DNA of 64,000 nt from Phoronis australis (lineage: Eukaryota; Animalia; Phoronida). How positions within the stretch are numbered: position 1 is the first letter of the stretch; each line of letters opens with the position of its first letter. Shown here in pieces: positions 7,715 to 64,000 of this stretch. The stretch lies in the NCBI GenBank assembly GCA_002633005.1, contig NMRA01000047.1:312913-376912 (forward strand). The letters are read 5' to 3'. The notes beneath the pieces were generated by a model that was given only the letters and a program-made list of their open reading frames with translations, was not told where the DNA came from and ran no database searches. The position numbers and the translations under genes were made by a program.

Positions 7715-7883
7715 AGCAGTATAAATAAAAGAAACATTCGAGCAACCATAAAACTGACAAATCACAAGGCACAACAGAAAGATCAAGGACAAATGATGTG
7801 GACGATTACAACAACACTTTTTATTTTTTAGCCGGTGCCCACCTTATTGATTGTGTTGCCACCACATTTGGTTTATCCTGTCC

Positions 7884-8570
7884 GTAGACAGTGACCACCG
7901 TCTCTTGCTAGCTCAGTAGAGATGGTGTAGCTCCTATAGGAGCTTTATCAATGCCGGAAGCTTTTCGGCAAATTATGCCTCACAGAGTCACACTGACTAA
8001 AACATCAAAGTCACGTTGTTATAAATACCTTTGCGCATAGAGGGACACCTTAGGAGGCCGTAGGTGGCTTTAATTCCTTCCAACTCAAACCAATAGTGCC
8101 GTTACCAAACTTTCTTCCAGCAGTCCCTCGTTCAGTTCCCAAAATCGGTTATTGGCCATTTTTAAACTGCGCACGCTAGGGGATATGATGTTATACCACC
8201 TGCTGCGTGCAGTGTTAAAATGGCCAATTTCCGATTATGGGAACTGAACAAAGGACTGGCCTCAGTAGACAGTGACCATCGTCTCTAGCTGGCTCACAAA
8301 AGACGATGTAACTCCTGTTGGAGTTTAATATGCCAGAAGCTTTTCGGCGAATTATGCCTCACACTGATTAAATAATCAAAGTCACGTTGTTATAAGTACC
8401 TTTTGCACATAGAGGTACACCTTAGGAGGTCGTTGATGTCTTTCATTCTTTACAATTCGAACAATTCACCTGTTATCAAACTTTTTCTTCGAGCAGTCCT
8501 TCGCTCAGTTCACAAAATCGGAAACTGGCCATTTTTAAAACTCAGTGCGGCAGGTGGTATGACATATCCT
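7884..8570. repeat. Diverged ~300-bp direct duplication with an inverted segment at the junction
   Basis: gtagacagtgacca... begins both 7884 and 8265 and the copies align for about 300 bp. 8183-8260 is the reverse complement of the copy tails (8121-8180 and 8494-8570). Confidence 0.75.
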
Positions 8571-8879
8571 GACGGGGCAGTTGAATTAGTCTTTAATATT
8601 ACTCCCATGAAATCGGTATCATTACATGCTTTACAATGTTGTAATTTTATTTCCGGTTCAACAAGAACATCAAATCCATCAGCGACCCAAAAAGACAATT
8701 CAGAATTTGTTGGAATTGACCAAACCTAAATTATTGTACTTAAATTGACATTTTATTCCTGCTAGAAGTCTGAAGCCACATTATTGAACATGAGATCATG
8801 AATGTTCGGTGATTTTAGCTTTAAATACCATGACACTTAGTTAGGCCATAAGTTAAAGTTGTTCATTTTACTTTCAGTC

Positions 8880-17800: not shown

Positions 17801-20498
17801 CCTTCTTCTCAAAGAGTTTGTATTTTTAACATTAAAAGTGTATTCCCAGAATTTTTTTTTTTAATTACATACAAGTTCCAAATGTTTTCAAAACATAAGG
17901 TCATCTCTCTCTGTCTCTCTGTTACTGACATTCTGGTGATGAGTGTACAAATGTGAGATGAGCTTCTGATGTCATTACCGGGACATGACATTCACAGAAT
18001 TTGGGAAAACAAAACAACTGACAGACAAACGCTGAAATGTTGAAATCCTCCAGCAACCAATTACAGATACAACCCGAATGCCACATACAATAGCTCACAT
18101 CGTCTGCTTGGGTTGGTTTCTGGGAGTGATGTCATGGAAGGATTTAGGTCCCCTTTACACTGTTTAAAGAGGTTCATCTTTCAGGGATATGACTTCCCAA
18201 GTCATAATTTTTAGTGTGAACTTGAGAGTACACAATGCTGAAAAGTGCTTTTTAAATACAAACGTTATTCGCACTCTTGCGCTGTTGCATGACACGTCGT
18301 GGTGTGTATATTGCAGTTTGTATATTGCAGAAAGAGTTCGCGATACTTTGATACACGAGATGTGTCATGCTGCAGTCTGGTTGATAAATGGAGCAAAAGA
18401 TGGCCATGGACCCTTGTGGAAATATTGGTACGTACAGTTCTCTCACCAATAAGTATCCACATCAAGAAAGTCTCAAAAGTGGGGAACAAAAATCACTAAA
18501 AATTGGAGATTTACATTAAACCAGTTGCTCACATACTGGTTGATTAGTTGAAGACACCTCAGGAGCTATGCAAGCATCAGTAGATAACTGGAGGAACGTG
18601 AGCAGAGAAATTGCACGCAGTTTTGGAGCGAGATTTCACAGATTTCTGGCATTACGAAATATTTGAAACTACCCCATTTGTCACTCTCATAATTGCTTAA
18701 ATTTTACAAGTGACAATTGACCAATTTCTGGCGAGATGAGATTTCAAAAGCTCGCGTATATGTCAGTTTCATAGTTTCCATGGTTACTTTTGCAGGGCTA
18801 AGAGGAGTACTGTAGCTCATCCAGACCTGCCAGATATCAAAAGGTGTCACAGTTATGACATCACTACCAAGTACACGTATAGGTGCACAAAGTGCTCCTA
18901 TCAGTAAGTGACACGAGATGAGAAAAATTGCATCAATCCAAGTGGGGTATCAACAATAAGACGGACTTCAAGTAACATCTTTTAAGTCAAGCCAACCAGT
19001 TTTTTGGATGCAGCCATCTGGTTTTGGGATACTGGTAAAACCCGTTTTGAGGTCCGAGCACCAAGTAAGAACACCGGTCATAGTTTTGCGGTCCAGTCAG
19101 CCGGTTTTGAAGTCCGACCAATTGTTGATTCTCCCCCTTGTTATCATTGGAGTTAAGTTCTTAAAAGGCAAGCAGCTCCCTGTCATGTTACCTTTACTGA
19201 AAATACAGGTCCCTGGTTTGTGTCTGTTGGTTTTTCTCTGGTGTTTGTGTGTTATCGACTGGAGCAGACTGTGCTTTTCATGCCCATCTCTCAACTTTTT
19301 TAAGTCTAGGTACTTTCCAATTTTTACCGGGTAGAAAAATGCAGGGATATTCCTGGACCGTGCCTTTGCGCCATTAGCGCATAAAAAATATAAAGGCGCA
19401 AGTACATTGCAGCAGTGCGCCCCCGGGCACATCTTTTAAAAAAAATTACTCTTCTAAAAATGCAAGATTCTAGTCAACTTACAGCCAGTCAGGTAAAACA
19501 TGGCTGTTATTTCGATTGCCCCTTGGGTTTCTGTTTCATGTGTTACCACTTTAATTACACTAAGTCTGCTGGCCACAACTTTTTGAAATAAGGCACACTT
19601 TTTATCATCAGGTGCACCCCAAAAGGCACAGGTTCAAACTTGGTCAGGAATATCCCTGGAAATGTATTTCCTTTAAAATATGCAAAACAAACAATTTGAG
19701 GATAATTGTAAACTTGCAAATGCACCAATCACTGGCCTCACTGTTATATAACATGACCTCATTTTTCATGCACACATGTGCATGTACTTTTTCTGATTGT
19801 ATCTGTATACCTGAGCAGCTGTGTTAGTTTTGTTGTTCTCCTGGTTTTGAAAATGGAAATTAATTTTGTAAAAAAACAACAGCTTGGTACGCCTCAGAAG
19901 GTCCTATTTTTGATAGCCCTAATGCTTCAGTTGTTTACTTGGACAATTGTCTTCCAGTAGCAAGCAATTCTGTCGTTCAATTCAAACATCATTTAAGGGG
20001 CTTTCATGATTTTATCATAGTATCAGTAATAATCACTTACAAGGGTCCTGAAGTTTGAGAACCAGTTTTATCCACTGGAATAGCGTGCATCAAACTGGTT
20101 CTCAAAATCCGTAATCCCTGTAAATGCTGTTGTATCAAGCCATCAGCTTCGGGAATATTTTGAAGAAGATAAACTGGACAGTGCTTCTGAAAATGAGCTC
20201 ACTGCTTCTTTTGCACGATGTAATTGTTTTTGAAACTTTCTGTAGGTTTGGTCGCCACTCCAAGTCTCTGGATACTTCCAAGAAAGTGTGTGGTTACTGT
20301 CGTGGCACTTTTGAGCTCCTCGTCGCCAAGAAAGATGGCACCTTGACAACACCTCGCAAAGCCCCTGCAACACCAAACAGGTTTGCGCTGTTTGTCAAAG
20401 AACATTATGGGTCGGTGAAGAATTCCGGCAAAGGACTAACACACAAAGACGTCATGGCGGTACTCAGTGATAAATTTGCACTGGCTAAAATTAGTTGA
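8880..20498 (+). CDS. GCNA: Germ cell nuclear acidic protein GCNA/ACRC (SprT-like metalloprotease), about 938 aa, 14 coding exons
   Basis: Phase-consistent GT-AG exons: 8880-8981, 10377-10446, 10665-10726, 11142-12580, 12922-12992, 13880-13934, 14565-14648, 15517-15617, 16102-16258, 16448-16532, 17661-17793, 18331-18427, 18796-18903, 20246-20498 (2817 nt). Long Ser/Asp/Glu-rich disordered region, then LFKLYNETVFDNQ-LEVKWNKRLLKTAG-ARIELSDKVCDSAERVRDTLIHEMCHAAVW-DGHGPLWKYW (SprT HExxH), RCHSYDITTKYTYRCTKC...RHSKSLDTSKKVCGYC zinc ribbon, and NRFALFVKEHYGSVK...HKDVMAVLS HMG-like end, which is the known GCNA architecture. Confidence 0.93.
16543..16621. repeat. Two-copy ~35-bp tandem duplication in a GCNA intron
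   Basis: tgtttttgtctgaaatagtggcttgctaagtaacct occurs twice in tandem. Confidence 0.75.
19342..19658. mobile_element. hAT-like MITE in the last GCNA intron
   Basis: 14-bp terminal inverted repeats CAGGGATATTCCTG / CAGGAATATCCCTG; flanks aaaatg and gaaatg are a possible TSD with one mismatch. Confidence 0.6.
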
Positions 20499-24597: not shown

Positions 24598-25803
24598 TCA
24601 CTTTTTACTACCGCTTTCCAGGGCCATCGGTTCCTCTTGCTCGATTGCCAGCGAGCGCCCACTTTCGGGTAGGGCAGCAATTGCCGGGGCGGAGAAGGTC
24701 AAGACACCATCTGGCGAGAGAGACGACTTCAGCGCACTCTCGTCCATTCCCCGTGGGAGCAACACGTTCTGACGGGACTCGCGGAAGCTATGCTCGTCCT
24801 CGTGTTTTGCGTGCACTTTGAGATGATGGTTGTCAACTTTAACCGCAATTTCGTCAGGTTTGTAGGCAGACAAATCCATCCTCAACTTGACTTGATCGCC
24901 CTCTTGTTGGAAACCTCGAGGGAAGCTGCCAAAGATGTCTTGGTTGCCAAAGAAACCTTCGGCGAGGTCTTGCTGGCGTGGAGCAGTTTTCAGCGGAGCC
25001 TGAATGATCAACTGACCGTGTCGGTTCAGGCTAGTGGTCACGTTTTCAGGGTCAACATTCTCTGGTAAGGCGACCTATTACAACAGTTAATTGTAGAAGT
25101 GAAAGATGTTTACTTAACTAGTGGAGTAATGCTATGTCAAAGATGCAATGGGTCAACAGTAGTCAACAAAATGCAAGTTTGACTGACAATTTCACTATAT
25201 CTTTACTTTGCATTTGTCTGCAATAATTGTTTAAAATGCTCTGAATTCTGGTCAAGTATTTATTTCATTATAACATTGTTACATATATAATTTGCTAGTA
25301 ATAGTCTCTCTTGAGAATACATGTTCTTATGTCTAACAGAAAAGCGCGTGCGTTGCGCCAGCAGTTTACTCTTCCTCCTGGTTTTCAAATCAAAATAAAC
25401 ATCTCCGAGTCAAAATCGTACACACAGGCATCTCATTTTAATATCATGTTCATCAGAGTCCTTAATCTTAAAGAACCATGCTTTCACAAATTCGAAAAAC
25501 TTCGAAACGAATGCTACAATCATAACCGTATTTTACCTTTCTTCGTCTCTCCATTTTCTCTATGTTGTCACCATCTTTAAACTCGTGCTTGCCGTATACA
25601 ATCACGTTGTTTCCTTCCATTTTCACATTGACGTCTTCGCTGTTAAATCCGCGCATATCCACGGCCTGCGACCATCTTTCCTCCTCTGGTTGACGGCGCC
25701 GATGACCTCGACCCCTACTCCACTGAAACCACGGATCAACGGGCCACGAAGGCCACAAGTCATCGTTGTCGAACTCGCGAGGCCAAAGTCGGAGGATTGA
25801 CAT
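24598..25803 (-). CDS. Small heat-shock protein (HSP20/alpha-crystallin family) with two tandem alpha-crystallin domains, about 247 aa
   Basis: Exons 25803-25537 (donor aag|gtaaaa) and 25074-24598 (acceptor taatag|), phase 0. Domain 1: VDMRGFNSEDVNVKMEGNNVIVYGKHE...VALPENVDPENVTTSLNRHGQLIIQAP. Domain 2: MDLSAYKPDEIAVKVDNHHLKVHAKHE...VLLPRGMDESALKSSLSPDGVLTFSAP, followed by an IxI-like RSLAIE. Confidence 0.92.
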
Positions 25804-26353
25804 TTCTGCAACTGGAGAAACAATTCGTGCCGGTTTTATTTTTTACGTCACTAACTGATGTTTAAGATAAAGATGAGGTCTGAAGAGGTTTGTTTTGCAC
25901 AGCAGCAGTTAAAATGTATATTAAGTAAATATTTTCCTAAAATTAAAATCAGTCTTTCATAAAACTCGGAAATACATTGACGGACAGCCAAATTCTAGCG
26001 CTAACGACCCCGTGATTCTCGGTCACTGAGACGAGTATTTCATCCCAGCAAAGACGTGCTTTACCGTGTCAGGGGGTGTGGGCGGCCGGGAGCGGTTACG
26101 GGAGGTAGGGGCCCTGCCCTAATTGTACTAAGCAGGAGGACACCCCCGGCCAAACCGACGCGGATAGCAAGCTCTTAAAAGCCGTGTTAAAGCCCCATGT
26201 GAGGTATGTACCATACAAAGCCATCTTTGAAAATCGGTATTTTAGTCCACGTTTTGGGATACAAACCAGTCGTTTTTTAGTACGGTAGGCCAACAGTTAT
26301 CGTTCGATCCCACTGAGCTAGGCCACGGTGATACACTATAACCGCATTCAAGT

Positions 26354-27021
26354 CACAGGCGTCCTCAGCTTCTGATCGTCCCCAATACACTACATATAAT
26401 ACTACAAGGTATGACACTTCGGACTTGAAATTCCACGGGTGCTTCACTTCAGCCGTCCATAGCAAACATAAAACTCAATAAATTTGCACAAAACAGGGGT
26501 TCGACAAACCATGAAGAATTGTTCTTTCTCCCAATACCATTCACGGTGTCCTGTTACGGCGACTTCGTAAGAAATTCGCAGTCAAAGAACAAAAATATTC
26601 ACAAAAAGCCCCCACACACGTTTCCCCTAGGCCCGTCGAGGTCAAGGACGGTACGGAAATTGCCGCTTTGTCGCGTAAAGTCACGATGTCGCTACTTCCG
26701 TAACTCACCGGCAATTTCCGTAACCGTCCTTGACCTCGACGGGCCTAGGGGAAACGTGTGTGGGGGCTTTTTGTGAATATTTTTGTTCTTTGACTGCGAA
26801 TTTCTTACGAAGTCGCCGTAACAGGACACCGTGAATGGTAGTGGGAGAAAGAACAATTCTTCATGGTTTGTCGAACCCCTGTTTTGTGCAAATTTATTGA
26901 GTTTTATGTTTGCTATGGACGGCTGAAGTGAAGCACCCGTGGAATTTCAAGTCCCAAGTGTCATACCTTGTAGTATTATATGTAGTGTATTGGGGACGAT
27001 CAGAAGCTGAGGACGCCTGTG
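26354..27021. mobile_element. 668-bp foldback non-autonomous DNA transposon with 8-bp TSD (P-element-like CANRG termini)
   Basis: Arms of about 312 bp (26354-26665 and 26709-27021) are near-perfect reverse complements around a ~43-bp spacer. Termini are CACAGGCGTC...GACGCCTGTG. The exact direct repeat ATTCAAGT flanks it at 26346-26353 and 27022-27029. The superfamily call is an inference. Confidence 0.92.
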
Positions 27022-27407
27022 ATTCAAGTTAGAAGTTTGTAACGTCGGATTAGGTCTTTTTATTGTAAGGCGAAGGTTATAGTACTTGGTTGGTACCCCT
27101 CGTGGATATGCCACACAGAGCCTTGTAGGTCTTCACGCCACATATCACTATTGCGCTATCACACAGACATCGAGTATGATGTGTGCTGGATTGGAAGTTT
27201 ACGAGAATCCTAGTTGGCCTATTGCTAAGTAGAGGCCTGACACGCACTCCCGCCGACCGCGGGGCCCCTTGCCATAAAACGAAACACTAAAAACTAACTC
27301 ATGCAAGCTTACCTCACCTGGAGTAACCACAAACACTAGTAAACTTCAAGTCGACGAAGTCTTCTAACAAACCGTGAATAAAATGTCGGTTCGGTGTCCC
27401 AGCTGCC

Positions 27408-47507: not shown

Positions 47508-50500
47508 CTAAATATAACTTTCCGACATTTCCTGTTTAAAAGTAAACTGTTCTGTTCCAGAATTGTATCCAAGATGCTGTCCGTACCCAGGAGATGCGTT
47601 CCCACGGCTGGTCGGGGATCTATCGTAGGCTGTCGGGCTGGAGTAATTTCGTCCGTAACTCCGGTCCGGTTGATCATAACTTGGATTAGATTGGTATCCA
47701 GGCGATCTGTCGTAACCTCGATCATAGCCTGGCGACCTGTCGTAATGACTGGTTGGGTTGTAACCACGTGATCTATCACCATAGTTATGTGATGCGTTTC
47801 CATAGTCACGTGCTGCGGTGTGATAACGTGTTGCGCTGTGTACTGCTGCAGTGTCATGCGGATTGTCGTTTGCAAACGCAGGGTTGTAATGACCTTGGAC
47901 ATGTCTTGGTCCGTTGTTGCGCTTTTCTGGGACTTCATCGTAGTTTTGCAGCGACTGATAACGACCGTCGTAATCGTTGTCCCTTGCTTCCGGATACTCG
48001 TAGCCATAGTGTTTGTTGTCGTAACTCACTCGCGAATTTTGCCTAGTGTCGAATTCTGCATCACGCGCATTCGTGTTGGAGGGACCGTATTGTGGCGATT
48101 GATTTCCTGGATTTCTAGCATATCTTTCCTCAGGCTTCTCCCACTCTTCGTTGTAAGCTGGTGGGTCTTCCCTATTATTTGAAATCGACACTCGGCTGAC
48201 GTTTGCTGCTTCCCCAGGTTGCGCGGTGGAGAGGGGTAATCTTGATGGTCTGAACACAGGGGGCGCCTCTTGCCCGCCCCCATTACCGTCGTTGTAGGGG
48301 CATTCCAGAGATGATTCGCTGTGATTCTCTTGAACCTTATTGAGTGTCCAGCATTTTTGGCAAATGTGATAAAGGGTAGTCTTCATACCCGCTTTGTACC
48401 CTTCGTGGTCGCTGGCGAACGGGCACTGATTCCTTTGGAACATGACGCATATACTAGGCGCCGGTCTTTTACGTTGCTTCTCTCCAGTATATGAGGGGTT
48501 TGTGATCGCCGACATGTGGGCAGGCTTACCAGGGGGTTCCCCGGTGGCTCTGCTTTTATTCCTTCGAAAAGAGTTTCGTAGCGATCGTCGGCCTCGTCTG
48601 AACGACCGCCTGGCCGTGTCTCTAAACGAACCCCACGCCCTTGACAAAGTTATACCTTCTTCGCCACGGTCTTTCATTTCCTGTATTCTCAACACTAATC
48701 CAATTAAAACGATAGTGCCAACTATGACCAAAATTGCTCCGATAATTCCTAAAATTATCCATAGTGGTGTCAAATTTGTTGTGATTGCTGACACAGGCTG
48801 TGGTTTAGATGACGGCGCCTGCGACATGACTGAAATAAAAAACATTAGTTGTTTAGAACCAAAATTCATCTTACTTGAAAAAATTATGTGATGACCAATA
48901 CTTACAGTGATACTAAGTCCTGTTTTAGCAACAATTACATCCCTTGAAGCTTTGACAAAGATAATGCTCTGTAACTCTCGCCAAACTTTAGAAAGTTTTA
49001 TGCAAGTTAAATACTTCATTTTGCTTATTTGTAAAGCGTGACTAAGGCTTTGAGAGTTAGAACCTGCCTTGTGGAGAGACGTCCCACAAGAGGAGTCATC
49101 TTGTGTATCAATGGGATGTGTTTACGTTGAGCAACGCCATTTGCCATGGCAGGTAATACCGGAAATTACCAGAAAGAGGTTCTCCAAATGCACGCGCACG
49201 ATCCTACATGAGACATTTCCCGCGTATTGGCCCGCAGGCTAATTTTAGAGCCATCATATATCTCACTCGGGCTTTGCAGGGTTTCGGAAAATGAACAGTG
49301 TCAGCGAATGTCACGTTTGTAGTTGGTCACTAGGCTAGCCCGCTGTTTTATCGTAATATTGTTAGTAAGCAATTAACTGAGCAAAAAGTCCACCATCTAC
49401 TATGTATTTTCCGTTTAGATCCACCGCTTGCCGAATGAACGTCCGGGGGATTCCAACTATCAGACAACGACTACGCTACAACAGGTTGCAGAACCAGTTT
49501 TGACTTGGGTGATTTTTATTTACTAAAATTCAATTTTCCCCTGTTGCAGAAAATTAAACCTGTATTTTTGATAAACAATATATACATTCTCCAAACGCGT
49601 TATTTATACGCCAAGTGTTGCAAGATGTTAGGGACGACTTCGTTAATTTCAGGTTATTTCAATGGCAAACGTTTACTGGCCATTGTCAAGCCTGTTGGAT
49701 TTCGACGCTTTTAGTGTGTGATTTGATAAAATTTTACCCAAGTAATTTTGGTCTATGGCCGAGGGAACTGATTCAGAAATTATATACTTCACTTTTATTG
49801 ATTTAGGACGGGCAGTCGGACAATTGAAAGTATTTGATGAATTGTAAAAAGGACTTCACGATGGCTTCTAATTACCAACAGGGTTTATTACGCACTTGCT
49901 GACAGGCATATTCTTTGTGCTATGTCATATAAAACAACACAAGTGTAATGAACGCAGGACACACAAATAAAACTCTTGCGCTTGATGTGCTTTACAATCC
50001 TTACTAAATGAAACGTATTATAAGGTTGTAAACATAACATGCTGTGTTCCAGACAGTAAATATTTCAGACAAACTTTGTCATTGTTGAACAAAACCAAGG
50101 AACCAACTTTTTGGCTTCTGAACAAAAATGACAAGGCGGCTGGCCATATATCATTTGATGAGGAATTAGTGTGCAAAGACCTGTCTCCGTTAGAACGAAA
50201 TGCATCCGTAATGCCTGATGAGTGTTGCGTAACACGTTTAAATCGTTTTAGCAATAAAGCAGAAGAGATTGTTCTGACAAGTTCCTGAAGGTAAATGCGT
50301 AATGCCAACGAAGCATGAATATTTCGCAAGAAATATAATGCATTCGTTTGTGCTAAAATAAAGTGTAGCTGACTGGTAAAACTATATCTGATGCTCTTCT
50401 AAAACGTTTATCATAATGCTTATGTTTTGTAGCCTATTGCTGATGTATGTCCGTGCAATTTATCTCTGACCGATACTCGGACAGGGGATTGTTATGCCAT

Positions 50501-50954: not shown

Positions 50955-52375
50955 GATTTCTTTCTGTCAGGCTGTCGTGGATATTCTCGTCGTCCTTCTG
51001 GTCACGAACGTCTACTGCTGCAAATTAGACTTCCTAGCGGTAGGATCGGGTAGGCAAACAGGTGTTGTCTGTTATCATGCCAGAAATATTTACCGTAGAT
51101 TGACTCATTGCGTTTTACCTGTACCGCGTTGCATTATGGGTTGATTGGTGAGTCACACTTGCTAGAGTGCCACCTGTTGTGAGCACATTCGGAATGAATT
51201 TTACCACGACGGCGCCCCACTGGCCGGATGGGTGCTAGAGCGATAACAATATTCAGTACCCTTCTGTTAAACAAATTCCTCTTGTGAAAATACCGGATTC
51301 GTCTCTTACTGCCACAATAAATAAATAAATCGAAGCTCATCAGCCCAAGCTCTAGCTTGACTGAGGACCGGTGTCGGATGGGGTGGGGGCTGACTCGAGG
51401 AGGCGTACATGAAGAATAGGCTCCGGTGCATTACCTAATAGTCTTTGTGGGTACTTGGAGAGCTTGCTTTGAATTCGGCTTGAGTGAACACGTAAACTCG
51501 TCCAGGATTGTGCAAGAGGAACGGCCCCGGAGCGCGGGTCCAGTCAATGCCCGCGAAACAGCGTGATTAATGATAGACTAAATTGTCACGTGGCCCAGTT
51601 TTAATAACAGTATTGCTTCCTACCTTTTCAACCGTTTAGAACATTTCAATTGAGTGAATTTTTATCAATTGAAAGACGTCCATATAGAAACACTTCGTAA
51701 ATTGTAACCCTCTTGAATATTACATTTTCCATCAATTTTATGTTTTCTCACTAAATAATTTCATCTGAATGATGAGCCAACGAATTTCATGAGATACAGT
51801 CGAGTACTTACAATAAATAGAAAGTTTTGGCTGTAATGACTTTGGTCACCATGACGCCGCAGTAGTGAGATGAAGTTCCTGTCCTCATCGGCACTAGGTT
51901 ACTAACCCGTACGGTAAGTTGCAGGCCAGGACCAGGTCACTTGCTTTTCTAAAGGATTTCGCATCTCATACATTACATAATGAGATTGTTGGAATTCGTT
52001 CTTATTACATTCCACCTATTTTGTTTTTTGGGGTTCATCGATCTGTAAACAACGTTTCGGAACCGGAACGGCTAAAGGGAGTCCCGTTTCTCCTATTCTC
52101 GCAAATTTATACACGGAGTTTTTGTAGCAACGGGACATAGCTGACGTCTCAAGTTTTCAGTTTTGTTTTTTTTCACGAGCTTTTGAAGGACATTTAGCTT
52201 TTGGTTGGCAATGTCCCAGACTTGTCCATGGAAACTCAGCGATTATAGTTGGCGAATAAAAGGTCACGGTGCTTTGAATTTCGCCAAACTAACTCGGTTA
52301 GCCGGTTTACTAACACGAGGTTATGATTTCCTTCTGTGACTGTCGCAATCATCCTTCACCACACTGTTCTATTTC

Positions 52376-52510
52376 ACCCGTTCCTTACGCAGTTACTTGC
52401 TTAAACCAAAAAAAAATTGTGCGCAGTTACGCTCTGAAAGAGTGTCCAGTACGCACTGCTAACGCTCTAGCAGGTACAGTTACTGCTTCACGCAGCCTCG
52501 CAGTTACAGT
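52376..52510 (+). mobile_element. Candidate left end and subterminal repeats of the KDZ element
   Basis: (c/a)(g)CAGTTAC is repeated four times (52388, 52422, 52476, 52499) about 110-230 bp upstream of the transposase ATG, preceded by cacccgttcc. The right end is outside the window, so no TIR or TSD can be confirmed. Confidence 0.35.
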
Positions 52511-52907
52511 GAACGCCAGAATGTTGCATGCTATCTCGCGAGATAAACGAGAACGTCATTGGGCGGACATTTTTAAAATCATCAGAAGGAAGGAATTTGG
52601 CTTCCACAGTCTGAGAGACAATGAGCGAAGTGAGTATATTTTTAAAGCAGTGCACTTATCGAGTTTTCAGTAGTAGTATGTTAATGTTTCGCACGATGTA
52701 TTTTGTTAAAGGTGTAATCCAGTAATGGGTAATTGACAACTGCCAACATAGCCAATCCAGTCATTTCAATGTCAGCCTCAGCCAAGCCTCAAAATTCAGT
52801 CGGTGTCGAGTCTCGACTGTAGGTGTAGACGTTCTTCCAATAAATCATTTGAGCTTCTGCTAATCATCTAATGGACTATGCCAATAAGCCAAATGCCGAA
52901 ATGGTTA

Positions 52908-53529
52908 TGTAGAAAATTTCGTGATGACGGGGACTTGAACTCGGGTTGCACGAGCGACAGTCAAGGCTTCATCTAAACCATTTGGCCAAGAGGCAATTGC
53001 CACTTGGTAAGCAGCTTAGGCTTTATCTGACTGTACGTGTCGTGACAACCGGAAGTCACTCTTCACAACACTACTCCCCCTTCCGCAGAACAGGCACGCT
53101 CCCTGGCTTTTAGATCTCATCAACACCTAGGTAGCGTCCTGGAATTCGACCTCAGCAACGCTCTCTTTTGTGTTCTGAATCCACCAGTGCCACCAGTACC
53201 AGGTCTCACCCTCTCCATCTGCCGCTCTTAATCTCAGGGTCGTGGGTTCATGCCCCACGTTGGGCACCAATGTAGAAAATTTCGTGATGACTGGGACTTG
53301 AACTCGGGTTACACGAGCGACAGTCAAGCATCTAAACCATTCAGGTTGGGTGCCAATTAAGAAAATTTCGTGATGACTGGGACTTGAACCCGGGTTGCAC
53401 GAGCAACAGTCAAGCATCTGAACCATTCGGCCAAGAGGCAATTATAATTGCCACTTGGTAAGCGGCTTAGAGAGGCTTTATCTGACTGTATGTGTCGATC
53501 GTGACAACCGGAAGTCACGCTTCACAACA
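52908..53529 (-). mobile_element. Miniature non-autonomous LTR retrotransposon (TRIM) with tRNA-like LTRs, Helenus-like
   Basis: TG...CA ends with a 4-bp GTTA TSD (52904-52907, 53530-53533). LTR copies at 52908-53070 and 53357-53529, plus a partial copy at 53271-53342. Minus-strand PBS complementary to tRNA-Lys(CTT) at 53269-53225 and PPT gaagggggagtag at 53083-53071. A box TGGCCGAATGG and B box GGTTCAAGTCC lie inside the LTR. Confidence 0.9.
53225..53269 (+). other. 3' half of tRNA-Lys(CTT) including CCA, acting as an extended primer-binding site (not a tRNA gene)
   Basis: ctCTTaatctcagggtcgtgggttcatgccccacgttgggcaCCA matches the conserved metazoan tRNA-Lys(CTT) from the anticodon loop to CCA with about 3 mismatches (compared from memory). 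The 5' half is absent. Confidence 0.85.
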
Positions 53530-56500
53530 GTTACAGCACGATTTCCAGTTTAATTTGGGCTAGGAGTAATATACATTTTGATATTGGTCCTAGATTTGGG
53601 TGGCTGGTTTCCCAAGCTGGGTAATCAGGGTAATCTCGACAATGTACTGCAATCAGCATATTTAGCAAAGGGATGATCTTCCCATAGAGTACTTCTGGTT
53701 ATTGTTTACAGTTCGACTCTATGAACCATTCCCAGGTTGGGAATTACTAAATTATATATTCTACTTTGGTCATGGCGAGGGTACCACACAATCATACATG
53801 TGAACTTCAATTCAAATCTAGACATTCTATATATCTGATCAAACCAGAATTAGTAACCAAGTGTTCCCTTTAAAGCCTAAACTTCAAGTTATACCTAACC
53901 TGGTCATGCCCAATGCATTGTTACATGCCTATACTACAGTTATTTATAATATCTACCCAAGATTATTCCCAAGAGGCAAAAATATCCACCCAAGTAAGAT
54001 GAACATCCCCATCACTCTTTCAAGAACAGCATTTGCTTTCTTCTGAAATCGAAACAACCGAAAACGAGGCAAACATGGTCACATAAAATTGTCGATTCGG
54101 AGGAACTACGAAAGCGTTCTTGAAAAGTTGTTCAGTTAATTTGGATTGTGTAGTGCTTGGAAAATCCCTGAATCTGATATTTGTTGCAAAAATCTTTTCT
54201 GCTCGAGTGCATTTATGTACATTTCAGAAAGTCAAAATAGGCCGCAAGAGAAAACTACCAATACTTTTCACCACTACAGTGGTGTCCGGAGGCCGTAAAC
54301 GAAATAAAGGTGTGCGTATTCCATCACGTGCTCTCCCTGCTGATTGCAAGAGTGTACAAACAAACGACTTGCTCATCAATACAAATGATGAAGAAATGGT
54401 ACTGGAAATGCCGGAAGGTATATCAATGGTATTTCCTTAGTTCACAATATTCTTAGCAATAAGCTTGTGAAGGAAAGTCTGTCTTTATATGATTCAGTGT
54501 GTAATTCTAGCCTTCCGCTTTTGGATCAAACTGAGGAACCCCATCACAACAGTGTTTAAGTTTAGTCTAATGATGAGTTTTTACAACGGTCACTAGGTTA
54601 CTTAGCCTTTCCACTTTGATTACTGAGTTAATGAGCTATACCTACATAATTTCTGATTTTATCGTTTGTTTTTCCAGGTGTCTCAAGATATAGAGCAAAT
54701 AAAAGAAAGTTGGTCGAAGCGTGGGACTCTGTAAGAGATCACATGCTCAAAATATACACTGAGACAGTGTTTCGTCCAGCGTCATATATATGTGTTTTGT
54801 GTGGCATTCATGAAGACAACATTATTTGGTGCCAGGATTGTTCCCACAGAGCATATTTCTGTAGTGATTGTAATATCAAACACCACAAAATAACACAGTT
54901 CCATGCTCCGATGAGTTGGTCTAAAGAGGTTTGTACGCACTCGACAACTCGCCAGTCCCAGCTGTATAGGATTAAGATTCAGAATGGTGCAGCATATTAT
55001 AGTTTTGTTCAGTATTCAACTCAAACTGAATTAGTGTACATTAAGATGTTCATAAATACTTCAATCAATGTTCCATACGGTCCAGGGCCATAGATCTGAG
55101 CTGACCTGGTATTCCCCCATTCGGTTCTTCCCCACTCAAATTTCCCCAACTGATGTTCTCTTGTTGGGATGTTTTCGATTCCCACTGTACTTTTGTCCTG
55201 GTGTCACCCTGTCCCAATATTTCACCATTCTTTTTGTCCAGTTACATGAAACTCCGGTTGGGGAGCAACAGAATAATGTAACAATGAGACGGGGGAACAG
55301 CAGTGCAGACCCATCAGAACACTATCAGCATAAAATTCGACAGCATCATTTGAAAAATAATCATTTGGCAAATATATCACAATCTTAAGTGACCTACAAC
55401 TAAACAGATACACCTTAGGGCATAGAGCACAACACAACAATGATGGATTGTGGTTTACATGTTTTATGATATCAACTGTTTAATCCAGAAACGTACTACT
55501 ATCACTGAAATTTGTAATTATTTGAATGTTTTACTGGATGTAATTTAAGATGTCAAAGTTCAATGGCCCTTGGCTTGAGACAATAGTCCATAGTTGTGAA
55601 AGACAGAAAGAATGCACTGTAATAGAACACAAACATTGGCTAATCAGAGACCTAGAATGCCAAAAGAGGTATAAATAAAGGGCAAATTGTCCTTTTTCGT
55701 TTCATACATGAACGTGGTTGTAGTGGGCTACTCATTGTCTATAGCTGAAACCCTGTTTTTAATCCAAAATTGGATTGAATAGCATTGAAAACAGGATTTC
55801 CATGTATTTAGTTTTGATTCATTGTCATATTTTAGTTTTTAACTTGGAAGGAAACAAATTGTAATTTTCAGATTGGAATGTACCTGTACATTCAACCAGA
55901 GGAAAGTATCCAAGGAGTGGGCCACATCTGTACAAGTCACCAAAAGACTGGAACCATTGTAGTGGTGGACTTAACAGGTTATATTGTTTCCAGTACAAAA
56001 ATGTGTAATCTTATTCATCAAATTGCATGCTCGAATTTTGGGGAGGTACCGTTCATTGTTCAGTCACATTTAAAGACACACATAATCTGGTTTTTAATGG
56101 AACAGTAGACTGAACAATCTTTCTCACTCACAGCCCCCATTGTGTCTCATTCTCATTAAAGCCTATCTTCAACGGTAATACCTGTAGATTTGGTTCCAAC
56201 AGTATGTTAAGAGCATCCCTCTGAGCCCACTAGTGCCATAAATTGCCAAATGTAATGGAGTGTTAGACGTTTTGCTTTTGTCTACGTCGCCGCGAGAATC
56301 ACCTTTTAATTCAAAAAGCTGCCAATAATACCCGCACGCAATGGTGTTCTAGTCAGTCCCCTATTCAATACGACCTTTTGTTGTTTGTGATGGAATCTCG
56401 CGGTGACGCAATGTGGCAAGAAAAGGCAGCTTCACTTATCATTGGACAGGCTTACATTTGCCTGATTGAACTCACGTTTTCTTATTTTACTATGGAATTG

Positions 56501-59500
56501 CTAGGACTTATCTTGTTAGCCCAATACATCTAAAATAACAAAATTCCGTTTAAGTTAAGCTTTAACACATTTTTTTAAAGAAGTGAAGTTCTTTTCTCAC
56601 CAACCGTAGTTCATTTCTTAGAAGTCATGGAAAAGTATATTGACGTCTGTAAGCCTGAGTATGTCAACATAAATTTCCTGTTATATCTTCACATAGTTTT
56701 TGAATCTTAATGATCACTTGGAAGTGCTAGTCTTCAAGAATGCAGAGGAAATAATTCAAATTTGACCATGAGCTCCAAGTTAACTCCTCAAAAACAATGA
56801 ATTTAAAGATGTCTAAAAAACAACTGCGTAAAGGATAATCTTTTGTTTCAGGGAGACATCACCACAAGGAATTTGTATTTTGCGAATGTGAATCTGCTGC
56901 AGTTACTTTAGTGAGATATGGTCTCTGGCCTTCCACACCTACATCACCAAAAGTTGCATTTACTATCCCAACAATGGAAATGCTAAGAGTGTTGCTGATG
57001 CAATGTCAAGTACCTGTGTCTGGATTTGGAACTGTTTTGGATTTGCTTGGAGAAAACTCATCTTTACCTTTTAAATTGGTAGTTAAGTTCATTATTGCTA
57101 TCTTTACTCTTTGTTATAGATTGATTAGGATCTTACATTAGAGCAGAATGAATACACGCTTTTATTATACATGAGTTATTGAACAAGCAGGTCAAGGTTT
57201 TGGTGAGTTTATTAAAAATTTGTGTATGCCACTCGGAAGTGAGTCCCGTTTTATCACAGAACTTTGGTCAAATGTGAAAATGGGGGTCGGGGTGTGAAAT
57301 CGAGTCATAAAAGTAAAGCATGATGACCATATTTTTATTAACTTCCAGGTGAGTCAAGTCAATAAGTCACTGAGCAGAGACAGTTTTGAGGAATATCGTT
57401 ATTTTTCATACAGGCAACGGTATCTTCAAACTGTTGATGGCAGATGTGATGATGGGACACAATGTCCAGCTTGTCCACAGGTATATTTCAATGTTTTTGT
57501 GTACAGGCAAGAAACAATAGTCCTTTTGCGAAGTTTATAACAGTAACGCGAGATTGTGTGAGACTTAACAGTGACGTCAACAAGAGTGCAGCAAAAGCTT
57601 GTCGTTGGCCATTTGCCTGATACGGGAGCAGAGTGTATTCCGTTTTTTACTTCGAGTTCTTAACCTTTTAGTATGACTAATGCCAAACAAACATATCTGT
57701 GATGGCAAATGAAATTCAGATTCGCACTACAATACATTCCATCGCGTTCTGTACTAATTTCGTCCCGTGTATTTAAAACGGGCAGTAGGTGAAATGCGCT
57801 CACTGAATAAGTTTTCACCTCATCAAAAATACTATTTTACACCTGAAATTATCACCTAAAAAGGCACTTACTTTCTTCAGTGATCCTTTCTGCTTCTAAA
57901 CATATCTTCAATGAAGCATAGCTACGGGAATTCAGGTGACTTTGGTGAAGAATTCCAACTCCACGTTTTGGTTACTCTTAACTTTGACTGCGCGCGTGAT
58001 AACCACAAAGTATTTCAACCGAGTCGGGCGAGTATAAGGCAAAGGCTAGCGTGAGATTGAGCAAAGCACGTGACCTGGCGTGTGACAATTGCGCAATAGC
58101 ATGGGAAAATATCCAGTGAAATTTGTAAGATTTTTGTCCCTTGGACTTTTTGTTCGTCAACAGAAGTGATTTAATGTAACTTCCTCGTAGTGGCGCCCGG
58201 TGAGAGAAACACGAGGGAACCACGAGGTTTTCATGGAAATGTTTGAGTTGTTTGAAGACTAAATTGTATCCAGTGTAAGAGTATGTGCTAATTATAACTC
58301 CATGTGCACATATGCATGTTTCATTTGATGTTTTGCTGTATTTTGAAATGAGTTACTTTTTATGGGGATATGCTATCGCCCCTGTATGCCTGCGGCATTC
58401 AGGCATAGATTGGGTCGAGTTCCAAGTTCAGTCCATTCACAGCTTCGCACAACATAACAAGTTCATATTTTCTTCGTCCATTTACAGTTATTCCACGATC
58501 CTTCTACTATCCCTTAGATCGTGTTAATGTTTTAAGTGTGGAATTAACCATAAGAACTCCAGTAAGATTTGCGTGTATAGTAAAGACTCACAGCAAAACA
58601 AGAACAATATGGCGGGTTTTGCCCTCCTTCTGGTGACGTCACATTGACTAATTGGAAACTCGCAAGTGAGCTATTCCTTATGATCAGCTCATGACAGGTG
58701 GTTATCAATGTCATAATTCAGCAAAGTAAGGTTAAAATGTGAAATTGGACAAATCTCAAAATGTATTTTTGCTGTTGTCTAGGATTTGTGTATGGTTGAA
58801 CTTGTGTGTTGCTTATGTTCAGTTTATTTATTTTGATTTTTTATTATTCTTTTTTTCACCATTTATTCTTCAAACACATTACAAATTAATATGAAAAAAT
58901 CTTTTAAAGTTGCGTAAAAAATAATAGTTTACAAAACTAACAGTGTTTTTGAGATGTCATCATGACTTTTTATGCTTTAGAAACACAAGTTTTATTGATA
59001 CACAGCTAATTACAAAGACTTGTTGATAAGGTACTGTAGGCCAGCATTTTTTTAATTGCATCTGTGGTTTTTCATCAAAAAGTGGGGACGCCACCAATCC
59101 GCCTGCCCTAGTCACTAACAACTTTGCTCCCTCCCTAGTGTTTGCCAACAATTCCACATTATTGTTTTCCATTTCTGAATTTCAGGATTGTGATAATGCA
59201 GTCTCCATGTATTCAATTGATGGTAACTTTGGCCTAGTTCGTAAAACATCAGCTGGTGAAAGTGATGTACCTCCCAAGCATGTCAAGAAATTTTTCATTG
59301 ACCAAGTGTGTGTGGATACCTATATAAAAGATTACTCTGAAGAATGCAGTCCTACTGTGAGTAATGTTTTGGTCAGTTTCAATATATTGTACCTATATGA
59401 TGAATTTTCAAGGTGCAACACACCATTACCTTTTGCCAGAGAACAACTTCTGATTCAGGCCATTTACCGTTGAAAAAGGTTTCTCGCCACTCAAATTGGA

Positions 59501-62500
59501 TTTATTATTTCCAATTCTTAGCATGTAAATTGAGATTTAATTCATTTCCGATGGTTGTTAAATATGCCAAAACATTTCTTTGCATCTTCTTTCAAATGAT
59601 TGTTGATTTTTGATTGACTATGAACATATACACAATACGTACCAAGAGTGGCGTTGATGAAGGAATATCCCACAAGACATTATTCCACCTATCGACCGAG
59701 ACCGAAGTTTCTTTCATTTTTTCGCCAGATTTTTCCGAAAATTTGATGATCGAACCATCTATTGATGTCGAGTCGACATTGACCTACCTTTTGAACTTGC
59801 CGTGTCAGAGGTCATTGTTGAAGTAGTGTGGGAGGTGAATACGGAAATCATTGTAACATGGCCATATTTCCCTTGACTGGTTCAACGCGTATGGGATAAA
59901 CATATATATCTCTCATCAATATGTAAATTTGGTTATTGTTTGTGACTTATGGTGTAATGTTTTTATTGCCAGGACTGTAGTGACTTTCATGCAGGAAATA
60001 TGATCCGAGCAAAAGGAAGGACAGCAAAGTTAGATGAAAAAGGTTTATTTGGAAGTGTTTGTCGTCATGAGTACCCAAAGCTGTTTCTGAATTTAAAACA
60101 TGGTGAAAGGTAAGGTTAGTTTAGTTTTAAGCAATACAGTCTGTCAGTGTATAAATTAAACCCATACTTTTTCTGAATTGCTGTGGTGTAGTACCAAGGC
60201 TTAATAACTTTCTACCTCCTGCAAGTACTTGTCTGAATAGAAAATACATGTTGCCATGAATTTCAAATTTTGTTGGTGTTAAATTAAACAATTTGATGAA
60301 AAATTTCAATCTCTTTCTAAATTTTTATGAAAACTTGAATGAAATTCAATAACAACGACATTCGGTAAAAATTCTATAGGCCTTCATGTACTCAAGTCAA
60401 GAAGAAAATGCACTCTGACATCAATCAGTCTGTCAATCAAACTGTGACCTCCACTAAAATGATGGGTTCACCTAGTGATGTGTTCAAACAAGCAACCCCT
60501 TATTTTTGCTTGCCCGTACATAATTTGATCCCAATTGTGGTAGGCAAGTGGGATGATTTTCTATGCTCACTTGCCTGGCCTGGCAAGTGATTCCCAGGCC
60601 ACACTTGCTTAACTTTGAAATCTACTTACCCTGGGTGATTGGGCAACCATTAATGAGCCCTGTGTGGTTAAAGTACTACATTAAGAATCCTAAGATTCAT
60701 GTTTCGACTCCCAGGGATGAAAAAATCTAGCCACTGCATCTTGAACTTCACAGTAACCACTAAATAATAACAAAAATCTGTTTACCTTGTATTTATGATT
60801 TTATTACAAATTATTGAATCTGCTTTAAAGCTTCTTTATTAATACCTTTAAACGATTTTTGAGCCTTACATCACTGGGTACTTTTGATAACATGTCTGCT
60901 GCCTTGGCACACCCGTTTCGTTCAGTGGTTAGGTTGATTACTTGGCTGATATTTGACCCACTAATGTAGGGCTCAACATGTCGTTAAAGCATTGGGCTAC
61001 TTGCTACAGCGCATCAGACTGCAACTGCAGAGGTCAAAGCTTGGATCTGCCTTTTGGCTGTTCTCAACTAAGCAATATCTTTGCTTAGTATGTCATTTGT
61101 TTGATTAAAAATTTCCCTGTATAATGTGTTTCTGTTTTATTTTTTTATTATGTTGGCTAAACTAAATGTGAATTTCTTGCAGACTTGGATATGCTGTGAA
61201 GTTGTTAGAAGAAATATTGGAACAGAAGCAGCAGCCATCAAATATCTTCTATGATATTGCTTGTGTCTTGGAGACTCACTTGAAGGTTACTTTTGCTAAA
61301 TAAGTATTTCAAGAATAATATCGTATTTCAACTTGCTATTCCTGTTATATCATTTCACAGCTCTTAGGTGTTTCTGTTCATTTATGATAAGGGTACTCCA
61401 CAAAACATTCTGGCCCAAGCTTAATAATGATCATGGTCTTGTTACAAGAAGTGATTTTACTATAATTGTATTGTGCATTTTTCAGCTAGTAAGCAGCATA
61501 TTTTGGTCTATAAATCATTCTATGCTTAATAGTTATTCAACTTTAAATTGCTTATTGGTTATTCAGTTTGTTTGCTTGCCAGTATGAGTGTACTTTTAAT
61601 AAGAACACATTACACAGGTAACTAGGTTCACCATTAGTTATATCAAATTTTGTATTTCAGAAGAGAAATAATACAGATCTACTAACTTAAGGAAAATGAA
61701 CTTAGCCATTCCAATTTTCCATTCTTATGGTCACAAGACTGGATGTCAGGTAAATAAGCAGCTGTGAGAAAATGTTTTTGATTTCATGTATTTAAGTGTA
61801 TACCAGTGTGTTTAAAACATACGTGATACAGTGAATTAGAAAGATTGGTAATATGTTTATCATTTCACACTTACAGTGCCCTGACAATTGTGCAAAGAAA
61901 AACTTAATGCAGATAGGTGTTGTAACACCATTGAGTAGTTGTTGCTTATGAATTGAATGTTTTCCAATCCAACATGGCATGACTGCTTGTCACCCTTACA
62001 CACCTTTAGTATTTTTACTCATAACGTAAAATTGCCGTGAGGAGTTGACAGGGACCTCAGGGGTTTCACACTCCACTGATTTATCCACAGTATTTTGAAA
62101 ACGCTTTGCCCAGTCGCACATTGTGTGTCATAAAAGAGATAAGCATACCAGCAGCTGACGCAGCAAGTAAAACTACTCTCGTTTATCACATTGGTGTAGA
62201 CTCACAGTTGATCTATGGTTTTCTGTAGACCCCAGACCGTCCCGAGTTGCACCACATACCAACTCGGGACGGTCTCTCACGACGATTAAGCGTTATGTAT
62301 GAGGCCCATTTATATGTGAGGTGCTTTGTAGGTTCTGTACAACCCGAGGAAACTTGGGACATTTGGCCTAACAGATGGGGAATCAACAGAGCGTTTGTGG
62401 TCCTATTTACGGCGATTCTCAAGAATAACGAAAGAGATGACTGCTTCTCACAGACAGGATGTTTTAGTAGATGCATTGATGTTTTATGGGGAACGCCTAA

Positions 62501-64000
62501 GGTCTAGTTTTGGTAAGTCAGCAGGGTCTCATTTATGCGGATTAAGCACATTTTAGCATTCTCGGCACATAGGTGAGCCTTTGTCTGACAAAGAATATAT
62601 TTGTTTAGTTTGAAGTTAATATTAAAATTAAAATGAATTTTCAAACATCATCAGTTGTTTACAATATAATACAAACCTTGTATTACTTATAAACTGGTAT
62701 ATGTATTGTGTGGTGACTTTTATTGAACTCTGTCCTTGTGCGTCCACATATTTATGTGATTGTGCTCATTGTCGTCATCTCTGTCTGGGTGTCTGGCGTT
62801 CGTAGCTGCATCTCCTACTTCCCTCACAGGATTGTAATGAAATTTTCCGACTGATCTCTGTGGTGCTATAGAGATCCAACAAGCGCTGTGCCTAGTGGCA
62901 ATTTCATTTTTTCAGGTTCCATCTGTTTCTCTGAAGTTCCTTGGCAGTTTTTTATGAAATTTAAGAAATAGCTTTCTTTTTAAGAAACAACATCTTTTGC
63001 TTTTGGTTGGATTTGGCATATTTTGTGACATTTAGTGGCTATTTTATAATGCAAATGAGCACCCCTAGATGCTAAATGTTCGCTGAGCATTCTTAGGTGC
63101 ATTTCAATGCTCTGCGTTGCTTTTGTTAATAATATGGAATGTGCCCAATACTCTTTCTTTGATTTTTCTGAAACTTGTTCAATGAAAGTTTTTATTCATA
63201 TTCTAATAAAAGATCTACTATCTAATATTCATCTGTGTGCTTTAACTTTTGTACTCATTGCTTGTTTCTCAGGTAAGGGCTTGTCATCTAAACTGCAAAA
63301 GGCACAAGATACTCAAGCATTGTATGATTCAGAGCTGAGACAGTTGGCAAGTCTTGTACCAGGTACACCATTGCTTATCAGTTGTGGGTTTGTAAAAACT
63401 TAATTGTTTTTTATACACTTGGAAGTTTTTACTGTGTTTTCAGGTATGTATAAAATCTAATGCTGCATGTTTTATGGGCAATTGCCATCAGTGTTTCCCT
63501 TGTACAAGTTTAATAGTAAGAACGAGCTCAGAGAAGGAGACACCTCTCCAATGCTCAATTGTCAGCCATTAAAACCAAGATTCAAACCCATGTTTCCCAA
63601 ATGGGAGCCTAGAGCTCAAACCACTGGGCCGCACTGTCTAATCATTGAGAGTTGGTATCCTCATGCTCATAAATGTGTTAACAAATTTCTTCATTGAGTA
63701 ACGATTTTTCAGGAGGTGTCACTAGTGAACAAGCTGAGCAATGGCACGAAAATGCAAGGCAGTTCCATTTGAACAGTCATGGAACACGTTTAGGTATATA
63801 TTTTTAACAGTAAACCCCTACCTGAAAGCATCGTAACTTAAAAATCGTCTGTAATTTATCTTAAATTTTACTTAAAGCAAATTTGTATTGTGTTCCACAA
63901 AACTGAGATAATATCTATTCTTATCTTAACTTTAAAACAGCTCAATCTTATCTTAAGTTTGCCTTAACTAACTTAAGAATATGTGTTCTGCTTTTGCCAT

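What the first reader, a model, noticed from the sequence alone, without database searches (positions are those of the whole stretch)
52908..53529. Complete tRNA-built miniature LTR retrotransposon: Pol III boxes in the LTRs, Lys-tRNA PBS, PPT, 4-bp TSD
Seen: a 622-bp non-coding unit with TG...CA ends, a GTTA duplication, ~165-bp direct repeats carrying a tRNA-like A box (TGGCCGAATGG), a T-arm/B box (CCGGG-TTCAAGT-CCCAG), a PBS and a PPT. Known: plant Cassandra TRIMs carry 5S-derived LTRs, and from my recall the Helenus TRIMs carry tRNA-like LTRs with 4-bp TSDs in animals. Inference: this is a SINE/LTR hybrid that is probably Pol III-transcribed and copied by a helper Gypsy-like element. It may be an undescribed family in this lineage.
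Basis: partly seen in the sequence, partly recalled or inferred. Interest (0 to 1): 0.8.

Follow-up and report, generated by a model that had tools for sequence, protein, structure and literature searches.

The report
Helenus-type mini-retrotransposon with overlong primer site
This is a real, repeated, 622-base non-coding jumping gene of the published Helenus kind, whose end repeats carry tRNA-style promoter boxes that likely let RNA polymerase III copy it for a helper retrotransposon's enzymes; this copy also matches its likely primer tRNA over 45 bases instead of the usual 18.

Summary
On the minus strand: 5' LTR (173 bp), lysine-tRNA primer site, 200-bp non-coding interior, polypurine tract, 3' LTR (163 bp), TG...CA ends, GTTA duplication. 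A/B-box pairs occur only in the two LTRs in 64 kb. Public DNA runs show many diverged LTR and interior copies, with ends at the LTR termini. It meets the sequence-level definition of animal Helenus (Kojima 2024) and matches no family in the supplement parts read: a new member of a known kind, in a lophotrochozoan-like host. Whether other copies share it was not examined. Pol III transcription and the helper are untested; RNA reads look like host read-through. The scan noted Helenus-like elements on other DNA before (18 notes), none alike in sequence.

The parts
52904..52907 (+). Target-site duplication, left copy (GTTA)
52908..53070 (-). 3' LTR, 163 bp, TG...CA; A box 52988-52978 (one mismatch), B box 52941-52931, T4 run 52916-52913; private 4-bp insertion
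   Evidence: multi-copy and ends at 52908/53070
52986..53007 (.). Palindrome just upstream of and into the A box (also 53431-53458 in the 5' LTR, with a 6-bp insertion at its centre); the most deeply covered bin of the LTR in run X4
   Evidence: I1/I2; (114-nt region z -2.61, 1 of 200 shuffles as good); table 2
53071..53084 (-). Polypurine tract abutting the 3' LTR (13 of 14 purines)
53071..53270 (-). Internal region, 200 bp, non-coding
   Evidence: longest stop-free stretch in any frame of the element 104 aa; no Pfam match for 53130-53222; multi-copy over 53075-53200
53225..53251 (-). 27-nt extension of the primer-binding site, complementary to tRNA-Lys(CUU) positions 58 to 32 (T arm, variable loop, anticodon stem 3' strand and loop)
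   Evidence: by eye, against the printed human tRNA halves: 24 of 27 match
53252..53269 (-). Canonical 18-nt primer-binding site for tRNA-Lys(CUU), including the complement of the CCA end; 17 of 18 match, the mismatch at a CpG; 1-nt spacer to the LTR end
   Evidence: by eye
53271..53341 (-). Extra copy of the LTR 3' part (71 bp, from the middle of the A box through B box and T4 to the CA end); half of the 86-bp duplication
53342..53356 (-). Truncated, decayed second primer-binding site (14 nt plus spacer); other part of the 86-bp duplication
53357..53529 (-). 5' LTR, 173 bp; A box 53433-53423, B box 53390-53380, T4 run 53365-53362; 3' end decayed; three small insertions relative to the 3' LTR
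53530..53533 (+). Target-site duplication, right copy (GTTA)

Best explanation
This is an aged, multi-copy, non-coding LTR retrotransposon (TRIM) of the Helenus type, which likely is transcribed by RNA polymerase III from the tRNA-style boxes in its 5' LTR and likely borrows Gag, reverse transcriptase and integrase from a Gypsy-type helper. Steps: (1, shown) it has LTR-PBS-interior-PPT-LTR anatomy, a 4-bp duplication and dispersed relatives. (2, inferred) Pol III starts a dozen bases before the A box, reads through the weak T4 run of the 5' LTR and stops at the T4 of the 3' LTR, so the tRNA-like piece is the repeated R region. (3, inferred from the PBS) host tRNA-Lys(CUU) primes minus-strand DNA, the PPT primes plus-strand DNA, and a helper integrase makes the 4-bp duplication. 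(4, match shown, cause inferred) the 45-nt primer match most likely arose when plus-strand synthesis in an ancestor ran past m1A58 of the primer tRNA into the anticodon loop and the over-long copy was fixed; the mismatch at position 58 fits misreading of that modified base, and the copied CCA shows a mature tRNA template. (5, shown) this copy later or at birth gained an 86-bp duplication and has decayed, including CpG loss on opposite strands in its two primer sites; it is probably not itself active.
For: Anatomy and statistics. Dispersed family: (run X4: 51 contigs differ at 53060, 10-15 contigs at four interior places; 10 contigs leave the LTR at 53070 into sequences that agree only 0.48; RNA run X5 has 43 reads leaving at 52908; 2 of the 16 listed pieces bridge the LTR-PPT-interior junction by 31 letters or more with 15 and 17 differences; 2 contigs go from interior back to an LTR end as a 5' LTR junction would; one X1 contig reads by eye as a solo LTR with a 4-bp CTAC duplication). 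Helenus definition, 4-bp TSD and Lys PBS shared with Gypsy elements in animals. tRNA match: (41 of 45 to the printed human isodecoder; differences at 41, an isodecoder position, 57 and 73, both CpG, and 58). Stop at m1A58 and minor read-through to the anticodon loop in retroviral reverse transcription: review passages.
Against: No sign of Pol III unit transcripts: RNA reads lie on both strands, 75% (X5) and 91% (X7) of those laid run on into unlike sequence, and no start or end pile-up was found; these libraries are ill suited, so this is weak. No helper was found: no genome is held, and 0 notes on Gypsy in this genome. No full LTR-to-LTR second copy was seen; no listed piece spans the stretch and reads were laid only on 52300-53200. 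T4 runs in the 5' LTR and in the duplicated piece would have to be read through. In the review, products that stop in the anticodon loop are said not to be productive templates, and the stop is at 37, not 32. Many Lys-primed Helenus keep a short T-arm-complementary patch a few bases after the PBS and the coelacanth families a looser long match (by eye), so the extension may be an inherited, selected feature rather than an accident.
Confidence: 0.8

Rival explanations
1. An ordinary Pol II-driven TRIM whose LTR carries a dead tRNA/SINE relic; the A and B boxes no longer matter.
For: No tRNA call by ARAGORN or Rfam; no cloverleaf; RNA signal is read-through on both strands; sister LTRs diverge from this one between the boxes (loose ends at 52970-52972).
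Against: Both boxes at tRNA spacing followed by T4 in each LTR, as in Helenus; by eye the sister LTRs keep the A-box side and resume a B-box-like end while the middle changes, which is what promoter-only constraint predicts (table 7).
Confidence: 0.15
2. The 45-nt match is a functional, family-wide extended primer site: the element pairs with the whole 3' half of tRNA-Lys(CUU), or is primed by a 3' tRNA half cut in the anticodon loop, which would help it win primer and enzyme from its helper.
For: The match ends in the anticodon loop, where tRNA halves are cut (3' half printed from U35); apart from two CpG sites and position 58 it is intact while the LTRs differ by 6%; partial T-arm matches recur in known Lys-primed Helenus (by eye); extra primer contacts are known for retroviruses.
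Against: One copy only; the second primer site in this element is cut at 14 nt and says nothing; no known family in the parts read keeps a contiguous match beyond about 20 nt.
Confidence: 0.25
3. The 86-bp duplication is the remnant of a tandem TRIM (three LTRs, two interiors) that lost the first interior and the U3 of the middle LTR, rather than a one-step local duplication or a faulty strand transfer.
For: The extra piece is closer to the 3' LTR (2 substitutions in 71) than to the neighbouring 5' LTR (6 in 71) and shares one non-CpG change with the 3' LTR against most relatives (52941); three-LTR arrays are the commonest tandem TRIM form in maize (PMC4717578 passages) and arrays occur in zebrafish Helenus.
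Against: Needs two events; the counts are too small to reject three equally old copies; the extra piece lacks the 3' LTR's 4-bp insertion.
Confidence: 0.35
4. An ordinary tRNA-derived SINE (or two nested SINE copies) that only looks like an LTR element.
For: tRNA-type boxes; LTR-like part is far more repeated than the interior.
Against: TG...CA ends, PBS one base after the LTR end, PPT abutting the other LTR, one 4-bp duplication around the whole unit; the boxes lie at the 3' end of the repeat, not its head; relatives break off exactly at 52908 and 53070. Excess of LTR over interior is expected from solo LTRs (Table S3).
Confidence: 0.02

Closest known systems
Helenus (TRIMp3), animal families; Kojima 2024, PMC10886601 (main text read whole except the end of the reference list; supplement parts 1, 5, 6, 7, 10, 11 of 11 read, whole file searched for 5 motifs)
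   Same: TRIM size (311-1263 bp reported; 622 here, 536 without the duplication); tRNA-like TRGCY...YGG and GGTTC boxes near the LTR 3' end followed by a T run; PBS and PPT; 4-bp TSD; Lys(CTT) primer, common in bivalve, wasp, nemertean and coelacanth families; LTR tRNA-like piece not complementary to the PBS; solo LTRs.
   Different: No sequence match to any family read; A box of the TGGCCGAATGG type whereas the animal families read mostly have TAGCTC/TGGCTC (by eye), which fits a separate origin; contiguous 45-nt primer match against about 11-20 nt; internal 86-bp duplication in this copy.
Cassandra TRIMs of land plants (known here only from the description in PMC10886601; the original paper was not held)
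   Same: Small-RNA-derived Pol III promoter inside the LTR; transcript would run from inside the 5' LTR to inside the 3' LTR; tandem forms.
   Different: 5S-derived, plant, experimentally shown Pol III transcription; here tRNA-derived and untested.
Primer over-extension sequence of lentiviruses and spumaviruses (review PMC13191261, passages)
   Same: Sequence just after the PBS complementary to the primer tRNA beyond m1A58.
   Different: There it covers read-through to about position 55-54; here the match runs to position 32.

Membership tests
Helenus (TRIMp3) | TRIM: two LTRs, under about 1 kb, no coding capacity | tested here: met
Helenus (TRIMp3) | tRNA-derived sequence in the LTRs with conserved box A (TRGCY...YGG) and box B (GGTTC) | tested here: met
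   both boxes 43-47 nt apart in both LTRs, 2 hits per window vs 0.07 by chance; parent tRNA not assigned (no Rfam or ARAGORN hit)
Helenus (TRIMp3) | PBS complementary to a host tRNA 3' end just after the 5' LTR, and PPT before the 3' LTR | tested here: met
Helenus (TRIMp3) | 4-bp TSD in animals | tested here: met
   GTTA/GTTA; a second 4-bp case read by eye from one solo-LTR contig; no genome-wide tally
Helenus (TRIMp3) | Dispersed multi-copy family with solo LTRs and full copies | tested here: met
   LTR and 3' interior multi-copy; a complete second LTR-to-LTR copy was not seen in one piece
Helenus (TRIMp3) | LTR tRNA-like piece is not the element's own primer | tested here: met
   self-BLAST of the element, word 7, E up to 1, shows no inverted match between LTR and PBS, only the two palindromes
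Helenus (TRIMp3) | Transcription by RNA polymerase III (proposed, not shown, in the paper) | tested here: inconclusive
   RNA reads on both strands, mostly running into unlike sequence, no start pile-up; standard RNA-seq
Helenus (TRIMp3) | Mobilisation by a Gypsy element sharing the PBS (proposed in the paper) | not testable with these tools
   no genome held
A described Helenus family (Data S1 of PMC10886601) | Sequence similarity to a listed consensus | tested here: not met
   0 of 5 exact motifs found in the whole file (misses line breaks and diverged matches); none alike by eye in parts 1, 5, 6, 7; parts 2-4, 8, 9 not read; Repbase and Dfam not available
Cassandra / Ajax | 5S rRNA-derived sequence in the LTR | tested here: not met
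   no 5S match in Rfam at E up to 10; boxes are tRNA type
tRNA-derived SINE | tRNA head at the 5' end, LINE-like or simple-repeat tail, variable TSD | tested here: not met

The most novel reading that the evidence does not exclude
An independently born Helenus-type lineage, with several sister families, in which the RNA pairs with the entire 3' half of tRNA-Lys(CUU) (45 nt, to the anticodon loop) and is primed by, or captures, 3' tRNA halves: a retrotransposon built from two different tRNAs, one as promoter and one as an over-long primer dock fixed from a reverse-transcription read-through.
Probability: 0.2. Interest if true: 0.65.

Novelty: new member of a known kind. Interest (0 to 1): 0.38.

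Why it matters
Helenus rests on one computational paper (only 1 of 6 papers holding the term TRIMp3 concerns it) and its Pol III promoter and helpers are untested; a further family with a different A-box type supports repeated independent birth of such elements and gives another system to test. The 45-nt primer match is the part a specialist would look at twice: as a one-off it is a genomic fossil of reverse transcriptase reading through m1A58; if family-wide it would point to priming by tRNA halves and make the element an unusually large target for host tRNA fragments.

Tried and rejected
No genome held, so no genome-wide search, TSD tally or helper search. The window holds no second copy. 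Metagenome scan with a 24-nt LTR pattern gave 1 locus, L001; it matches only the pattern in GC-rich unrelated DNA and was dropped as chance. Rfam: 3 weak unrelated matches, no tRNA or 5S; ARAGORN 0. No RNA holder listed (not used as evidence). Self-priming by the LTR piece, a lead from earlier notes on diatoms, rejected. Small heat-shock protein search did not place the host (best 42-52% identity); the GCNA exon did so only roughly (best Lingula 64%, then octopus 60%, 14 hits); the phylum is not settled, so 'new phylum for Helenus' is not claimed. Pfam scan of 102 of 234 further stop-free stretches for another marker gene gave only a KDZ transposase piece. Literature searches for an extended PBS fixed in a retrotransposon found nothing on point: 24 papers, tRNA reviews; 1; 1; 0; 4; Ty1 and HIV structure papers, listings only; 0; 0; older virology papers are largely outside the searched library, so this is not proof that it is unreported. 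Earlier notes: no look-alike by sequence, none near, none on extended PBS or Gypsy in this genome; the 4 same-genome notes concern LINEs. Read depth was not used as a copy number.

Full report
Observation. The window at 52908-53529 holds, on the minus strand, an LTR of 173 bp (53529-53357), a short decayed primer site, an extra 71-bp LTR end (53341-53271), a one-base spacer, a primer-binding site from 53269, a 200-bp interior ending in a 14-nt polypurine tract (53084-53071) and an LTR of 163 bp (53070-52908), between two GTTA copies. The LTR pair aligns at E 3.7e-52 and nothing else in the window resembles it. A-box and B-box patterns at tRNA spacing occur twice in the window, once per LTR, against 0.07 per shuffled window. 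Each LTR end carries a T4 run after the B box. The piece is not a tRNA gene: ARAGORN finds none, Rfam gives three weak unrelated matches, and it folds no better than shuffles (z -0.61). The longest stop-free stretch in any frame is 104 residues.

First, an 86-bp tandem duplication (family D1) that repeats the LTR from the middle of the A box to its CA end plus the first 14 nt of the primer site. Second, age: the LTRs differ by 10 substitutions in 159 bases and four indels, and the CpG of the primer site has decayed on opposite strands in the two primer copies (seen), so both descend from an intact Lys site and were probably methylated (inference). Third, the primer match is long. Against the human tRNA-Lys(CUU) halves printed in PMC12140204 (methods passage) the element matches, by eye, positions 76 to 32, 41 of 45 letters. 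The differences are at 41, where the element fits the other isodecoder whose 5' half is printed in PMC6049508 (passage), at 57 and 73, both CpG sites, and at 58. The 27 letters beyond the usual 18 match at 24 places; by simple binomial arithmetic at one in four that is about 4e-12. The host's own tRNA was not available, so human sequences stand in.

Is it a family? No genome is held. Four DNA runs of the same organism hold the region. Laid on 52300-53200 at 85% likeness, 45 contigs of run X1 and 319 of run X4 fit. In X4 the summed depth is 216-426 over 52672-52888, 2162-9908 over the LTR and 439-1146 over the interior; depth is not a copy number, but 51 contigs differ from the window at 53060 and 10-15 at four interior places (40 of 133 variant rows shown). 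Ten X4 contigs leave the LTR at 53070 into sequences that agree only 0.48, and 43 RNA reads leave it at 52908: relatives end at the LTR termini. Two of the 16 listed pieces (of 375) bridge LTR, PPT and interior by 31 letters or more on each side, with 15 and 17 differences, and two contigs pass from interior back to an LTR end, as a 5' LTR junction would. One 2661-base X1 contig reads by eye as a solo LTR with CTAC on both sides. One X1 contig matches 52600-53047 exactly, so the left junction is not an assembly error. Loose ends at 52970-52972 in three runs show sister LTRs that share U3 and the A-box side and differ between the boxes. Limits: the sample behind X4 may be pooled; no piece spans a whole element; the primer site, the duplication and the 5' LTR were not covered by the lay, so whether other copies share the 45-nt match or the duplication is open.

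Expression. In RNA runs X5 and X7, 213 and 43 reads were laid, on both strands; 75% and 91% run on into unlike sequence and no place shows many starts or ends. This looks like LTR copies inside host transcripts. It neither shows nor excludes a Pol III transcript.

Host and setting. A GCNA/SprT exon of the window has its best hit in Lingula (64%), then octopus and other molluscs (exons placed): an invertebrate, most likely a lophotrochozoan, not placed further. The element lies next to a multi-exon KDZ-type transposase gene (CxC at 56839-57138; KDZ at 62332-62553), and its left flank is itself repeated, so it may sit inside a DNA transposon.

Mechanism. Shown: anatomy, duplication, dispersal. 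Inferred, following Kojima 2024 and the Cassandra model described there: Pol III starts just before the A box of the 5' LTR, passes the T4 there and ends at the T4 of the 3' LTR, so the tRNA-like piece is the R region; tRNA-Lys(CUU) primes, the PPT primes the second strand, and a Gypsy helper supplies the proteins (animal Helenus share PBS types and 4-bp duplications with Gypsy). The LTR piece cannot be its own primer. For the long match: plus-strand synthesis normally stops at m1A58 after 18 nt, with minor products reaching the T loop or the anticodon loop (review PMC13191261, passages). A copy that ran on to position 32 and was fixed would carry the CCA and a wrong letter at 58, as seen. Against: the review calls anticodon-loop products unproductive and puts the stop at 37. 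The rival is a selected long dock, perhaps for a 3' tRNA half; by eye many Lys-primed Helenus keep a short T-arm patch after the PBS and the coelacanth families a looser long match, which the paper does not discuss. The duplication could be a local tandem duplication, a faulty strand transfer or the remnant of a three-LTR array (PMC4717578 passages); the extra piece is nearer the 3' LTR (2 of 71) than the 5' LTR (6 of 71), too few changes to decide.

Comparison. Every sequence-level feature that defines animal Helenus is met; Pol III use and helper are untested here as in the paper. It is not Cassandra or Ajax (no 5S) and not a SINE. It matches no listed family: 0 of 5 exact motifs in the whole supplement and nothing alike by eye in parts 1, 5, 6 and 7, which hold all non-wasp animal families and some wasp ones; parts 2-4, 8 and 9 were not read and Repbase and Dfam could not be searched. 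Papers seen: PMC10886601 main text parts 1-5 of 6 and the supplement parts named; PMC13191261, PMC12140204, PMC6049508, PMC7555719, PMC4717578 passages only; all others as search listings. Searches for an extended PBS fixed in a retrotransposon found nothing on point, in a library that lacks most older virology.

Verdict. A real element and a new member of a known kind. The class is published and widespread, and this scan has met it before on other DNA (18 notes in at least 8 genomes; none alike by sequence). The long primer match is the one feature that could raise it, and it rests on a single copy. Interest 0.38.

Noticed in passing
window 54000-63400 (+), possibly from 52314: Multi-exon KDZ (Kyakuja/Dileera/Zisupton-type) transposase gene: CxC1/CxC2 at 56839-57138, KDZ at 62332-62553, B-box-like exon at 54650-55090. 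The TRIM lies just upstream or in an intron; its left flank 52362-52660 is multi-copy in reads.
   Followed up: partly
loose ends at window 52970-52972: At least three sister LTR types share U3, the palindrome and the A-box side but differ between the boxes; by eye their anticodon-position triplet is CTC where this one has GTC, hinting at a Glu/Asp-type parent tRNA (comparison partly from recall).
   Followed up: no
window 52986-53007 and 53431-53458: Palindrome at the U3/A-box border is the most deeply covered LTR bin in run X4; hairpins just upstream of box A are visible by eye in many animal Helenus LTRs. It could pair the RNA's 5' end with its 3' LTR or serve in dimerisation (inference).
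   Followed up: partly
window about 8900-20498 (+): GCNA/ACRC (SprT) gene with a 505-aa acidic exon at 11070-12587; exons placed by tblastn.
   Followed up: partly
window 24598-25842 (-): Two stretches with alpha-crystallin (HSP20) domains, perhaps one multi-domain small heat-shock gene, distant from all database hits.
   Followed up: partly
window 7448-7707, 26354-26607, 26768-27024: A 257-bp repeat at 95% identity; the two copies at 26.3-27.0 kb are inverted around a short spacer, like a MITE with long terminal inverted repeats.
   Followed up: no
window 47508-49121 (-): 537-aa stop-free stretch with a transmembrane-like segment, a Cys/His cluster and a Tyr/Asp/Arg-rich repeat tail; no Pfam match.
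   Followed up: no
run X1 record 5: Solo LTR with a shortened B-box end inside a short tandem repeat; the same flank appears in 25 RNA reads of X5, so this solo LTR lies in a host transcript.
   Followed up: no
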